Program-made: the position numbers
Shown: positions 57,001 to 60,000 of the stretch, one piece after another
Position numbering within the stretch: position 1 is the first letter of the stretch
Layout of the letters: the number at the start of each line of letters is the position of its first letter
UHGV virus genome: UHGV-0180032
DNA: 64,000 nt
DNA from: a virus
Direction: 5' to 3' (one strand)

Positions 57001-60000
57001 TTAACTTAGGGTGATTGTACCTTATTTTGTATAAACCGTCTTAGAACTCGTTCTAGCGCGTTTTACGGACAAAATAAACCTACCCTCCTGCTAAGCAGGA
57101 GGGTATTTATTATTCTACCGGGTGCAACATAGTGCCGGTATCTGGAATGCTACCTTCGTGACATCTGAAGAACGTTACACCTTTACCTTCACCCGTTTTG
57201 TAGTTGACAGTAGAATACGCAAACGTTGGGGTTTTCGACAGTAACCCGTTTACACGGTAATAGCGCTCACCGGTAACAACGTTTAAGTTACCGTCCACTT
57301 TACCTAACAGGTCTTTATATAGTTGCGGAGATTCAATTTTACCTTCGTCCCATGTAGCGACCCAATTCGCCCCTGTATCCATGACTAACACCGAAAGGGG
57401 CATCAGTTTTAGGCTAGACGGTACCGGTTTAAAATCAACGAATTCTTGAGAAGCACCTGTACAGGTGTAAATGACCATATCGTGTTGGTCAACAGGTACG
57501 GTGGAAAACTGACCTTCCGCGTTCGGCTGAATAGCACAACTTGCCAACGTCATTACAAAAGCAACGACCACGAGAATGCGTTTTAGCATAAACTCACCCT
57601 TATTAAAATTAAGAAAAAATAATTTTTTCAGGTTAGCGCTTACTGCCAACCGTCATATCTATATTTTAGGAAATGTCTAAAATAACATTCTTATGCAATC
57701 CACCCCTACCACTAACGAGGTAAAAAAAGATGGCTAAAGCCTTCAAACAACAGCTCAATTCGTCTGGCTTCTCAAGACCTGATCGGTGCCAAAGCTTACG
57801 AACAAGCCGGTAGCCTCGATCTGGAAAACTCCGTCATCGTAACCAAACTGAACGAAGAAATGGTTACTAAAGGTTATGTCGATGACGCATTCGCCGAAAG
57901 CGAACTGTCCATTGAGAAATCCGAAGGCGACAGCGGTGCTAAAGTCTACACTGTCAAAGTAAGCGAAGGCCACATCAAATTCCTGGCTGGTACTATTGCC
58001 GTCTTCACTTATTCCAACCCAGCTCCTGAGAAGGTAGCACTGAGCGGTCTGGAAGGTGAACTTGATGGCTTCACTGCACCGGGTGTCGGTGGCTAATTAA
58101 ATCGGGGGGGGGTGACCTCCCCCGATATTTCTCTAACACGTATTATTAAGGACCTAGATAATGGCCGCTACTAACCAGATGATGTTGGTCGCGCTTTATA
58201 ATGCTGCTAACGCTGAGCTACCGCATCAGATTACAGATAAAGAAGTGTCCTTTGGTCTCCCTACTGCGCTGGAAGGCGAAAGTAAGAATACCAAAGTTAC
58301 CATGACTGCACTACCGGGTTCTGAGAATTTCAAAGGCGAAATCGAACTGCATTACGATCGTCTGGAACCAGGTGTTGTAGGACGGATTGAACTAACTGAC
58401 GATCTGTCTCGCTGGGTTCAAGAAAATGAACTCCGCGCTTGGTTACAATATTACATCAACAAAGTAAAACCTGACGACGCTATCGCACCAGGCGACGTTG
58501 TGTACAACACCGAAGACCAGAAAGACGAACATGAAAACGTCACTCTGCGTACCGTGACGTGCACCGTTACTGAAAAGAACCTCCGTTATAAACCGGGCGT
58601 AATGGCAACCTTCGTAATTACACCGAAGGTTGTCGATAATCGTATTGACCTGGCCACCACCAACGGTGAGTTGGACGGTTTTACTGCTTAATCGCTAAGT
58701 CAACTACTATAACAAAAAATAATAAGTTTACCTACCTCCTTTACGGAGGTAGGTATTTTTTTATTCTAATCCCATTTCCAGTGCAAGAGCACGGATCGTG
58801 TCGTAGTCACGCTGTTCAGCGTACTGACGAATTTCACGTTTCTGGGCAGACATCGCGTTGTGTAACTGTTGGTCACGCTTCACAATAGCCCCCATCAACG
58901 CTTTACATTGCTCCAGCGTAAACGGTTCTATACGTGTATTCGACGTGTCCAGCCAATAATCCGGTGCAGTTTCAGACTGGATATATTGGCCCAGCATCTG
59001 ACGAGAGGTTTCGTCAGCTTGGAAATGACGACCGTCAACTTCGATGTAGCCGTGACGCTGGTCTTCGTAACGGTGTTCAATTTCCAACATGATTTTCTGG
59101 ATATCTAAATAGATATAGCGAGACGTCGAACGCATATTCGAACGAATCTCATCCAGGTCAATCTCCAGAACGTCAGTAATGAATTCTTTTGCTTTATTCA
59201 GTGTAAACTTCGACTCGATAGGAGACATTTCGTAAGTTTGCATCTGGGCTAAAGCTTCTTCATCACTCATCCCTTCAATCAACTTGTAGTGCAGTAAAGC
59301 ACAGAACCCCGTACGTCCACGGACTTCGTTACCTACACGTTCCATGTAGTTACCGTGGCGGTCAATTGGGAGATCGTGAGCGAAATAACGCGCGCGAATC
59401 TCTTCCTTCGTTAAGCTTTTGTTAGAAGCAGACATTCTTCTTCTCCAACCATACCTAATTCTTGCAGCAAGCCAAAATCAATCAACTGGAAGGTTTCAGA
59501 GAGATCGTTTGACCACACCACGTTTGCAATGTCGCGTTCTTCATCCGTTAACTGCGGTAACACACTTTCGTTGAACGTCTGATGCTCTACGTAATACGCA
59601 TCGTAGATAGACGTGGAACGCAAACAACGGATGGGTAGACGCGGGAAAGACACCGCTAACGCAGCAATAGACGCGCTGCTCGGATTCTCCGCTGAATAAC
59701 GAAGCAGTTCGATTTTGTGGCGTGGGTAGTCCAGTACACGTTGTTCGAAACCCGGATTACGTTTTTCGATTTCCACAACGGACTCATGGCCTGTTTCTGT
59801 GCAGTAAACAGGAATCATCACGTTTAACCCGTACTTAATCAGCAGGGGTTTAATCTCATCTGTAAAGTCTTCACCAGGGATAATGGCGTGGACGTTATAG
59901 AGTTTGTGTTTACGCAGAAAACGCTCAACCAGGTGGAGTTTACGCTTCGTAAAATTGTGGATCAGAATTGATTTCATTATTTGCCTCAGTAGGTTGTGCA

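What the first reader, a model, noticed from the sequence alone, without database searches (positions are those of the whole stretch)
57110..57589. Phage-encoded lipoprotein adjacent to the lysis and fibre regions: candidate superinfection-exclusion or receptor-masking factor
A minus-strand gene, convergent with the lysis block, encodes a 159-aa protein with a classic lipoprotein signal peptide (MLKRILVVVAFVMTLAS-C). Lytic phages use small outer-membrane lipoproteins (e.g. T5 Llp) to block their own receptor and prevent superinfection or virion loss on debris.
Basis: partly seen in the sequence, partly recalled or inferred. Interest (0 to 1): 0.5.

Follow-up and report, generated by a model that had tools for sequence, protein, structure and literature searches.

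The report
Jumbo-phage outer-membrane lipoprotein, fibre-linked
A giant Salmonella phage encodes a real, conserved lipoprotein that should be planted under the host's outer membrane; its gene travels with the phage's host-recognition fibre genes, so it may block re-infection, but this is untested and it is unrelated to the known blocking proteins.

Summary
Window 57110..57589 (-) encodes a 159-aa protein with a textbook lipoprotein signal (MLKRILVVVAFVMTLAS|C), its own ribosome-binding site, a divergent promoter region and a bidirectional terminator.

The window comes from an SPN3US-like nucleus-forming jumbo phage (Chimalliviridae). The SPN3US orthologue is gp159, which does not appear in the published virion mass-spectrometry tables.

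- **Family:** it is tiny, with 14 representatives among 1.84 billion proteins, all read as jumbo-phage sequences. It is under purifying selection (dN/dS about 0.09).
- **Conserved features:** 34 of 36 members keep the lipobox, none has Asp at +2 (outer-membrane sorting), and two further cysteines are invariant.
- **Not a spanin:** it has no i-spanin partner and no C-terminal membrane helix, and SPN3US carries a separate spanin-like pair 42 kb away.
- **Context:** across relatives down to 27% identity, the constant neighbours are DUF7941 or tail-fibre host-recognition genes, not the endolysin.

Best reading, at about 0.4 confidence: a structurally new lytic-conversion lipoprotein that acts on an outer-membrane entry component to exclude superinfection or spare progeny. 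The function is inferred, not shown. Interest is moderate.

The parts
57110..57589 (-). Lipoprotein gene, 159 codons plus TAA. It is the orthologue of SPN3US gp159 (SPN3US_0159) and Asesino gp174, and belongs to PHROG 9559.
   Evidence: ORF and sequence. Homologues: 56 phage records, PHROG 9559 at E 6e-71, and 14 representatives among 1.84e9 proteins. dN/dS is 0.09.
57539..57589 (-). Signal peptide, residues 1-17 (MLKRILVVVAFVMTLAS). LspA is predicted to cleave it before Cys18.
   Evidence: It passes a PROSITE PS51257-style rule, as do 34 of 36 family members. The hydropathy peak is confined to the N-terminus.
57536..57547 (-). Lipobox L15-A16-S17-C18. Cys18 is the predicted lipid-attachment site. 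Ala19 at +2 implies Lol export to the outer membrane.
   Evidence: C18 is invariant and L15 nearly so. The +2 residue across the family is A 21, S 9, T 2, V 1, K 1 and never D.
57152..57508 (-). Predicted periplasmic beta-barrel domain, residues 28-146. Invariant residues are C43, C143 (probable disulfide), G73, R109, Y111, R112, S126, G133 and G135.
57113..57151 (-). Variable, disordered C-terminal tail, residues 147-159. In Erwinia-phage homologues it becomes an Ala/Pro/Thr-rich extension of up to about 45 residues.
   Evidence: pLDDT is below 50 for residues 149-159. Length and sequence vary across the alignments.
57593..57601 (-). Shine-Dalgarno sequence AAGGGTGAG.
   Evidence: Read directly from the sequence.
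57622..57658 (-). Promoter region. It holds a conserved ATATGAC footprint (57658..57652) 65-70 nt upstream of the ATG. That footprint abuts a weak sigma-70-like site, TTGGCA-16-TG-AAAAAT (57649..57622).
   Evidence: The footprint is shared by the window, SPN3US and Asesino although the flanks have diverged. It contains the TATG core of phiKZ late promoters (PMC7598289). The heptamer is not enriched in the window. The sigma-70 scan is. Promoter class and timing are unresolved.
57081..57105 (.). Bidirectional intrinsic terminator: an 11-bp stem with T-runs on both strands. It is shared with the convergent M15-like gene.
   Evidence: the sequence is shown.
57728..58096 (+). Context: a divergently oriented DUF7941 paralogue. 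In this window it carries an internal deletion of about 61 codons plus a frameshift, leaving a 78-aa ORF at 57860..58096.
   Evidence: tblastn with the intact 178-aa paralogue from L010 matches only its residues 67-178, at 92% identity, over 57758..58093. The PHROG 4862 hit covers only the C-terminal half.
58161..58691 (+). Context: an intact small DUF7941 paralogue of 176 aa, from the host-recognition filament family.
   Evidence: Pfam DUF7941 and PHROG 4862. The role of DUF7941 is taken from bioRxiv 10.64898/2026.04.21.720040.
55124..56989 (+). Context: the convergent block. It comprises a GH108 muramidase with a PG_binding_3 domain (55124-55714), a conserved 34-aa ORF (55711-55815), a DUF1353 protein (55822-56496) and an M15-like peptidase (56474-56989).
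   Evidence: The SPN3US orthologue of the M15-like protein (gp158) was seen at low counts in virions and was lost from tailless particles (PMC5105663).

Best explanation
The gene makes a phage-encoded lipoprotein that works in the envelope of the infected cell, not in the virion.

**Steps read from the sequence**
- A Sec-type signal with the lipobox LASC directs export.
- The host enzymes Lgt, LspA and Lnt would lipidate Cys18.
- A tether of only about 9 residues holds a compact closed beta-barrel (residues 28-146) just under the outer membrane. The invariant pair C43-C143 probably locks the barrel with a disulfide.
- A variable disordered tail follows.

**Inferred function**
The gene travels with the phage's host-recognition genes (DUF7941 filaments and tail fibres) across very divergent jumbo phages. 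It is not a spanin and was not detected in virions. I therefore think it most likely is a lytic-conversion, superinfection-exclusion factor.

In this reading the barrel binds the periplasmic side of an outer-membrane component that this phage group needs for adsorption or tail penetration. Candidates are a secondary receptor, or the outer-membrane part of the flagellar apparatus. Sister phages then cannot productively attack the infected cell, and progeny are not wasted on debris.

This is the working principle of T5 Llp on FhuA and of Rtp45 on LptDE, carried out here by an unrelated and larger protein family. The target, the timing of expression and the exclusion phenotype are all untested.
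For: **Lipoprotein and outer-membrane sorting**
- 34 of 36 members pass the lipobox rule, and the +2 residue is never Asp.
- The invariant residues are C18, C43 and C143.

**A real gene**
- dN/dS is 0.09.
- It has its own Shine-Dalgarno, a conserved upstream footprint and a terminator.

**Folded periplasmic domain**
- AlphaFold2 gives pLDDT 84, with most of the core above 90.

**Not detected in virions**
- gp159 does not appear in the SPN3US virion mass-spectrometry tables.

**Fibre linkage**
- In close relatives the gene always sits beside a small DUF7941 paralogue.
- In relatives at 27-38% identity it is the last gene of a DUF7941 operon (L012, L013). It also lies between two DUF7941 proteins, one with weak LRR_5 hits and one with DUF285 (L014).
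- In L005 it comes directly after a 1324-aa tail fibre and its assembly protein. In L015 it comes after a 1375-aa protein. None of these has a GH108 gene nearby.
- DUF7941 proteins are abundant virion proteins proposed to form host-recognition filaments at the baseplate.

**Precedent**
- Llp and Rtp45 are periplasmic outer-membrane lipoproteins that block the receptor from inside (PMC9586334 listed; PMC12685063).

**Cassette behaviour**
- The gene is an island of old divergence (dS 2.6) between flanks with dS of 0.6-1.3. This suggests it is exchanged as a unit.
Against: - No experiment addresses the function.
- The mature protein is 142 aa, two to three times the size of known exclusion lipoproteins.
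- The reported receptor of SPN3US is the flagellum. No outer-membrane protein receptor is known for this group.
- The protein is not more similar between phages of the same host. The window protein is 56% identical to Salmonella phage SPN3US and 60% identical to Erwinia phage Asesino. Tracking of a host-specific receptor is therefore not evident.
- In close relatives the gene also sits next to three peptidoglycan-hydrolase-like genes, which would fit a lysis or inhibitor role.
- Conserved synteny within a fibre and baseplate region could be inheritance rather than functional coupling.
Confidence: 0.4

Rival explanations
1. It is a peptidoglycan-hydrolase inhibitor. An outer-membrane-tethered barrel of the PliC/MliC/PhiA type would inhibit a muramidase or peptidase in the periplasm. 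One version blunts the tail-associated lysins of superinfecting sister phages, which is how T4 Spackle works. Another version restrains the phage's own GH108 or M15-like enzymes until lysis.
For: - MliC is likewise an outer-membrane lipoprotein whose barrel is closed by a first-to-last-strand disulfide (my recollection; not checked here). MliC also has a Y-x-C near the start.
- In close relatives the gene is convergent with GH108, DUF1353 and an M15-like gene. The SPN3US M15-like protein gp158 was detected in virions with tails.
- The family motif [DE]-x-G-x-x-[WF] loosely resembles the MliC motif S-G-A-x-Y.
Against: - No member hits Pfam MliC (PF09864), even at E up to 10.
- Profile-profile alignment to an MliC alignment covers only the signal peptide and the Y-x-C, 36 columns in all.
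- The PhiA and PliC matches are no better than those to unrelated small barrels: Cap15 7.9, OmpW 7.4, nitrobindin 7.1.
- The barrel has about 10 strands, with an extra 45 residues or so relative to MliC.
- Relatives at 27-33% identity have no lysin gene nearby.
Confidence: 0.12
2. It is a lysis protein: the outer-membrane half of a spanin, or another outer-membrane disruptor. In this reading it belongs to a lysis cassette with the adjacent GH108 endolysin.
For: - It is an outer-membrane lipoprotein within 1.4 kb of an endolysin-type gene.
- phiKZ has an o-spanin of 120 codons in a cassette with its endolysin and a DUF7941 protein (PMC12894885). Size alone therefore does not exclude this role.
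Against: - No gene for an N-terminal-TMD i-spanin is adjacent, overlapping or embedded in the window, SPN3US, Asesino or any other locus.
- There is no C-terminal TMD, so it is not a unimolecular spanin.
- The periplasmic part is a well-folded barrel rather than a short proline-rich segment.
- SPN3US encodes a separate pair 42 kb away. A 156-aa protein with an N-terminal TMD is followed after 9 nt by a 159-aa lipoprotein (180017..180976). This pair is conserved in 73 phage records.
- Distant homologues lie in fibre operons without lysis genes.
Confidence: 0.04
3. It is an envelope factor with a different target. Options include a calycin-like small-molecule or lipid-binding barrel (like Blc), or a binder of another envelope machine. 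Possible roles are stabilising the outer membrane during the long jumbo-phage cycle, stopping motility, or countering an envelope-based defence. None of these involves blocking phage entry.
For: - The protein is moderately conserved between phages of Salmonella and of Erwinia (50-60% identity). This fits a target common to Enterobacterales.
- Purifying selection is strong.
Against: - This reading does not explain the persistent linkage to host-recognition genes.
- There is no PADLOC hit. The library does not cover anti-defence proteins, so this test is weak.
Confidence: 0.2
4. It is not a functional lipoprotein. The N-terminal motif would be a chance resemblance, or the ORF would not be expressed.
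For: Only rule-based prediction was possible; SignalP and LipoP were not run. No proteomic detection could be retrieved, because the infected-cell proteome paper PMC6384053 is not held.
Against: - The lipobox is conserved in 34 of 36 homologues down to 27% identity.
- dN/dS is 0.09.
- The gene has a good Shine-Dalgarno, a terminator and a conserved upstream footprint.
- The predicted fold is confident.
Confidence: 0.02

Closest known systems
T5 Llp, the lytic conversion lipoprotein that blocks FhuA (PDB 8a60, 7qjf)
   Same: Both are encoded by a virulent phage and have a lipoprotein signal predicted to reach the inner leaflet of the outer membrane. Both have cysteines in the mature part and are not virion components. 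Both are free-standing transcription units next to host-recognition genes; for llp this rests on my recollection, not a check here. The proposed principle is the same: bind an outer-membrane component from the periplasm so that incoming phage fails.
Rtp45 and the related exclusion lipoproteins of small siphophages, which act on LptDE (PMC12685063)
   Same: Both are periplasmic outer-membrane lipoproteins. Rtp45 shows that the principle extends beyond TonB-dependent transporters to other outer-membrane machines.
   Different: Rtp45 is about 6 kDa. Sequence homology to it was not tested directly here. PHROG assigns the present family to an unannotated group (9559).
MliC/PliC/PhiA lysozyme inhibitors (Pfam PF09864; PDB 2f09, 3oe3, 7dpy)
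   Different: There is no Pfam hit and no profile-profile alignment beyond 36 N-terminal columns. The signature motifs SxSGAxY and YxxxTKG are absent. The barrel has about 45 extra residues and more strands. The fold scores are no better than those to unrelated barrels.
o-spanins (lambda Rz1, phiKZ gp141.1)
   Same: Both are phage-encoded outer-membrane lipoproteins. In close relatives this gene lies near an endolysin-type gene.
   Different: This protein has no i-spanin partner gene and a folded barrel rather than an extended proline-rich segment. A separate spanin-like pair exists in SPN3US.

Membership tests
Bacterial lipoprotein (Lgt/LspA substrate; PROSITE PS51257 type) | Positively charged n-region, a hydrophobic h-region, the lipobox [LVI][ASTVI][GAS]-C, and the Cys at position 15-35 | tested here: met
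   MLKRILVVVAFVMTLAS-C has its Cys at position 18 and passes the rule. So do 34 of 36 family members. The Cys is invariant.
Bacterial lipoprotein (Lgt/LspA substrate; PROSITE PS51257 type) | A positive call by a trained predictor (SignalP 6 Sec/SPII or LipoP), or biochemical lipidation | not testable with these tools
   Neither program is available here. No labelling data were found.
Outer-membrane (Lol-exported) lipoprotein of Enterobacterales | No inner-membrane retention signal, that is, no Asp at position +2 | tested here: met
   The +2 residue is Ala in the window protein. Across the family it is A 21, S 9, T 2, V 1, K 1 and never D.
T5 Llp family | Sequence homology to Llp | tested here: not met
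   hhalign of the 21-sequence family profile against the verified Llp sequence aligns only 18 signal-peptide columns, with probability 24%.
T5 Llp family | A small mature lipoprotein of about 60 residues with the Llp fold | tested here: not met
T5 Llp family | Binds the phage's outer-membrane receptor from the periplasm and abolishes adsorption | not testable with these tools
   This needs expression and adsorption assays. The receptor of this phage group at the outer membrane is unknown; flagella are reported for SPN3US.
Functional class: superinfection-exclusion lipoprotein linked to receptor-binding genes | The gene is located with receptor-binding or fibre genes | tested here: met
   The neighbours are DUF7941 or tail-fibre genes in every locus examined, including those at 27-38% identity.
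Two-component spanin, o-spanin subunit | A partner i-spanin gene (N-terminal TMD with a coiled-coil periplasmic domain) that is adjacent, overlapping or enclosing | tested here: not met
   No such gene flanks or overlaps it in the window or in 10 related loci.
Unimolecular spanin (T1 gp11 type) | An N-terminal lipoprotein signal together with a C-terminal transmembrane helix | tested here: not met
   The hydropathy scan finds a hydrophobic segment only at the N-terminus. The C-terminus is polar and variable.
MliC/PliC lysozyme inhibitors (PF09864) | A match to the family profile | tested here: not met
   No PF09864 hit appears in any of 21 members at E up to 10. hhalign against a 10-sequence MliC alignment covers only 36 N-terminal columns.
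MliC/PliC lysozyme inhibitors (PF09864) | An eight-stranded barrel with a terminal disulfide and the active-site-plugging motifs SxSGAxY and YxxxTKG | tested here: inconclusive
Lipocalin / calycin | An eight-stranded calyx with the conserved lipocalin motifs and a ligand pocket | tested here: inconclusive
   Foldseek finds lipocalins only at E of about 0.07-0.3 and TM 0.3-0.36. There is no Pfam lipocalin hit.

The most novel reading that the evidence does not exclude
This would be the first superinfection-exclusion or lytic-conversion factor described for nucleus-forming jumbo phages (Chimalliviridae), built on a new beta-barrel lipoprotein fold. Because relatives such as SPN3US are flagellotropic, it may act from under the outer membrane on the flagellar outer-membrane apparatus, or on a still-unknown secondary receptor used for tail penetration. 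Finding its binding partner would then reveal that receptor.
Probability: 0.15. Interest if true: 0.7.

Novelty: new variant of a known kind. Interest (0 to 1): 0.36.

Why it matters
How chimalliviruses recognise and penetrate their hosts is largely unknown. The DUF7941 filament cloud was only proposed in 2026, and no cell-surface entry receptor beyond flagella has been reported for the SPN3US group.

A phage lipoprotein that is genetically tied to the recognition module, and that must act at the outer membrane, is a ready-made molecular probe. Its binding partner would be a strong candidate for the envelope component these phages depend on.

If it confers exclusion, it would also matter for phage-cocktail design with SPN3US-like phages. 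It would add a third, structurally unrelated family to the Llp and Rtp45 class.

If it turns out to be a peptidoglycan-hydrolase inhibitor, it would be a phage-borne counterpart of bacterial PliC/MliC. Either outcome can be tested with one expression construct.

Tried and rejected
- **Nucleotide search.** Megablast of the region against 50,697 phage records found nothing. The phage is known only at protein level.
- **Family libraries.** Pfam, NCBIfam and PADLOC gave no family for the protein.
- **Solved structures.** A profile search of PDB sequences matched only another lipoprotein's signal peptide (TrwH).
- **Foldseek against PDB.** Nothing scored below E 0.03.
- **AlphaFold database libraries.** These were not available.
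- **Llp homology.** Rejected.
- **Spanin role.** Rejected on anatomy, and because SPN3US has a separate spanin-like pair.
- **Promoter class.** The conserved ATATGAC heptamer is not enriched in the window. Its resemblance to the window's putative early motif AGATATATATTAC (3 mismatches) is at chance level. Expression timing stays open.
- **Faster evolution than the neighbours.** The lower identity to the closest relative reflects an older, saturated dS (mosaicism), not a raised dN/dS.
- **Infected-cell proteome.** The SPN3US paper (PMC6384053) is not held. The spanin census supplement does not list SPN3US.
- **Context of distant members in IMG/VR.** Three single-protein scans found nothing. 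Contexts were recovered through exact-protein look-ups instead.
- **Disulfide geometry.** Model coordinates are not exposed, so the C43-C143 distance could not be measured.
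Full report
**1. The observation**

- It starts at an ATG preceded by AAGGGTGAG. It encodes 159 residues beginning MLKRILVVVAFVMTLAS-C.
- The longer TTG-initiated frame (57649) is not supported, because all homologues align from the ATG.
- A PROSITE PS51257-style rule is satisfied: K/R near the N-terminus, six uncharged residues, the lipobox, and the Cys between positions 15 and 35.
- Among all ORFs of the window, this is the only hit that is not a short frame buried in another gene.
- An 11-bp hairpin with T-runs on both strands (57081..57105) terminates both this gene and the convergent gene.

**2. What the window is**

Megablast finds no phage record. At protein level the region is collinear with Salmonella phage SPN3US (Seoulvirus) and with the Erwinia phages Asesino and phiEaH2.
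- The orthologue is SPN3US_0159, that is gp159. In Asesino it is gp174.
- These are SPN3US-like members of the Chimalliviridae.
- gp159 does not appear in the published SPN3US virion mass-spectrometry tables. Its neighbour gp158 (M15-like) appears at low counts and is lost from tailless particles.

**3. The family**

The family is PHROG 9559, function unknown. Pfam, NCBIfam and PADLOC give nothing.
- An exhaustive profile search of 1.84 billion representative proteins returns only 14. The word-indexed searches return 13 and 21 clusters. I read all of them as jumbo-phage sequences, some sitting in bacterial assemblies as contigs of about 225 kb.
- In a 21-sequence alignment reaching 27% identity, the invariant residues are C18, C43, G73, R109, Y111, R112, S126, G133, G135 and C143.
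- 34 of 36 members pass the lipobox rule. The +2 residue is A, S, T, V or K and never Asp. By the established Lol-avoidance rule for Enterobacterales, this predicts outer-membrane localisation.
- Against the closest relative (72% identity) dN/dS is 0.09. The protein is therefore under purifying selection.
- dS is 2.6 for this gene but 0.6-1.3 for the genes on either side. It is thus an island of older divergence and behaves as an exchangeable cassette.

**4. Structure**

- With the 21-sequence alignment, AlphaFold2 gives mean pLDDT 84.2, with most of the core above 90. The model has an N-terminal signal helix and a linker of about 9 residues after Cys18. An all-beta domain of about ten strands (28-146) follows, and then a disordered tail.
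- C43 lies in an early strand and C143 in the last strand, which suggests a barrel-closing disulfide. This is an inference, because coordinates could not be inspected.
- Foldseek gives weak lipocalin hits.
- The profile search of PDB sequences matches only a lipoprotein signal peptide.

**5. Genomic context**

This is the most informative evidence.
- In Seoulvirus, Erskinevirus, Wellington-like and unnamed close relatives, the gene is a lone opposite-strand unit. On one side are one to three small DUF7941 paralogues. On the other is the block (M15-like)-DUF1353-34-aa ORF-GH108.
- In Wellington-like phages the radical-SAM block has moved, but this small cluster stays together.
- In distant relatives the picture changes. 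In L012 and L013 the gene is the last gene of a same-strand operon of DUF7941 modules.
- In L014 it lies between two DUF7941 proteins, one with weak LRR_5 hits and one with DUF285. In L015 it follows a 1375-aa protein.
- In L005 it follows a 1324-aa tail fibre and a tail-fibre assembly protein, and it precedes an 870-aa protein with a DUF7941 N-terminus.
- GH108 is absent from all five of these neighbourhoods.
- The constant companion is therefore the DUF7941 or fibre module. A 2026 preprint on phage Goslar shows these are abundant virion proteins. They form filaments, often carry carbohydrate-binding or LRR domains, and are proposed to mediate host recognition from the peripheral baseplate.

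**6. Spanin and lysis readings**

- No neighbouring or overlapping gene encodes an N-terminal-TMD protein, and there is no C-terminal TMD.
- A lipobox scan of the whole SPN3US genome finds three credible lipoproteins. One of them (180497..180976) begins 9 nt after a 156-aa protein with an N-terminal TMD, which is the anatomy of a separated spanin pair. It is conserved in 73 phage records.
- Nearby lie a secreted SLT-like transglycosylase and a two-TMD 86-aa protein.
- PHROG gives these proteins no function, so this reading rests on architecture alone.
- phiKZ likewise has a classical cassette (PMC12894885).
- The block beside the finding may therefore not be the main lysis cassette, and the finding is not needed as an o-spanin.

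**7. Inhibitor reading**

The PhiA and PliC fold hits prompted a direct test.
- No member hits Pfam MliC even at E up to 10.
- hhalign of the family profile against E. coli MliC, and then against a 10-sequence MliC alignment, aligns only the signal peptide and a Y-x-C (36 columns).
- The signature motifs are missing and the barrel is larger.
- Membership is not supported. A convergent inhibitor function cannot be excluded, given the adjacent hydrolase genes in close relatives.

**8. Llp comparison**

- The T5 Llp sequence was verified against X75922. hhalign aligns only the signal peptide.
- Llp and Rtp45 are roughly 6-kDa lipoproteins. They bind FhuA and LptDE from the periplasm and deform the extracellular loops (PMC9586334, listed; PMC12685063).
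- The present protein could work the same way but is not a member of those families.
- One complication is that SPN3US is reported to use flagella.
- A second is that the protein is no more similar between two Salmonella phages (56%) than between a Salmonella phage and an Erwinia phage (60%). This argues for a target conserved across Enterobacterales.

**9. Expression signals**

- The true divergent intergenic region is 57590..57727. The next gene upstream is a deletion-bearing DUF7941 paralogue.
- A heptamer ATATGAC lies 65-70 nt upstream of the ATG in the window, SPN3US and Asesino, although the flanks have diverged. It contains the TATG core of phiKZ late promoters (PMC7598289).
- The heptamer is not enriched in the window. 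Its likeness to the window's putative early motif is at chance level.
- A weak sigma-70-like site abuts it. Timing is unresolved.

**10. Verdict**

It is shown, or strongly supported by sequence, that this is a genuine, conserved, outer-membrane-directed lipoprotein with a folded periplasmic barrel. It is specific to SPN3US-like jumbo phages, was not detected in virions, is not a spanin, and is genetically tied to host-recognition genes.

It is inferred that it acts on an outer-membrane entry component to exclude superinfection or spare progeny (confidence about 0.4). The rivals are a peptidoglycan-hydrolase inhibitor (0.12), another envelope role (0.2), a lysis role (0.04) and an artefact (0.02). 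The remainder is unassigned.

The finding is a reasonable and cheaply testable lead of moderate interest. If the function holds, it is a new variant of a known kind.

Noticed in passing
window 55711..55815 (+): A conserved 34-aa ORF, MNWFAKLLALLWKALTSGRKRKDEKRGQEFFWFL, overlaps the GH108 stop codon (ATGA). It has an amphipathic, hydrophobic N-terminal half and a strongly basic middle. An ORF sits at the same position in L010 (94% identical), Asesino (gp172) and Wellington-like phages. It could be a small membrane-active lysis peptide of the holin or cationic-disruptor type. PHROG has no family for it.
   Followed up: partly
window 57728..58096 (+): The DUF7941 paralogue divergent from the lipoprotein gene carries an internal deletion of about 61 codons plus a frameshift, relative to the intact 178-aa copy in the closest relative (L010 6324..6860). 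Only residues 67-178 are still readable, at 92% identity. The closest relative has three tandem small paralogues; this window has one intact copy and one decayed copy.
   Followed up: yes
window 4910, 25829, 47032, 50335 (+), and weaker copies near 9810 and 25065: A recurring motif follows intrinsic terminators and precedes genes: a T-run and then (C)AGATA(T/G)ATATTACC(T)AG. It fits the published description of chimallivirus early (virion RNA polymerase) promoters, which have a T-rich stretch and an AT-rich element around -10. Two copies are identical over 13 nt.
   Followed up: partly
SPN3US NC_027402.1 180017..180976, 175058..175780 and 176428..176688 (loci L019, L020): There is an unannotated spanin-like pair. 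A 156-aa protein with an N-terminal TMD is followed after 9 nt by a 159-aa lipoprotein with lipobox LTGC. The lipoprotein is conserved in 73 jumbo-phage records, all labelled hypothetical. About 4-5 kb upstream lie a signal-peptide-bearing transglycosylase and a two-TMD 86-aa protein. This may be the real lysis cluster of the SPN3US group.
   Followed up: partly
SPN3US NC_027402.1 165783..166662: A third candidate lipoprotein (133 aa, lipobox LAAC; PHROG 9424, function unknown) overlaps the start of a 163-aa protein that has an N-terminal hydrophobic segment.
   Followed up: no
window 53719..63089 compared with L010: Divergence from the closest relative is sharply mosaic. The plus-strand fibre and hydrolase genes have dS of 0.5-1.3 and 89-95% amino-acid identity. 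The lipoprotein gene and the minus-strand block (DUF4376, PHROG 7988, two radical-SAM genes) have dS of 1.8 or more, or saturated, and 52-85% identity. This indicates recombination breakpoints at both ends of the lipoprotein gene.
   Followed up: partly
window 58761..62181 (-): A four-gene set is conserved in the relatives examined down to about 30% identity. It comprises a DUF4376 protein, a PHROG 7988 protein and two radical-SAM enzymes. It always lies near the fibre and lipoprotein region, even when rearranged as in Wellington-like phages. It might modify or mature a fibre component.
   Followed up: no
window 34846..35252 (+): Two tandem small paralogues (70 and 65 aa) each have an N-terminal transmembrane helix and a pair of conserved cysteines in the predicted periplasmic part.
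   Followed up: no
window 58101..58126, about 40170..40200 and about 46320..46345: Several terminator hairpins are built on runs of 8-10 G paired with C-runs (for example ATCGGGGGGGGGTGACCTCCCCCGAT). This is a distinctive terminator style in this phage.
   Followed up: no
proteins P0019, P0022 and P0018 (protein library): Two library entries are block-permuted versions of SPN3US gp159, with the same segments in scrambled or reversed order. They are presumably assembly or gene-calling artefacts. A 5404-aa repeat-rich protein scored E 1.6e-29 through 22 weak repeat matches. This looks spurious and was ignored.
   Followed up: partly
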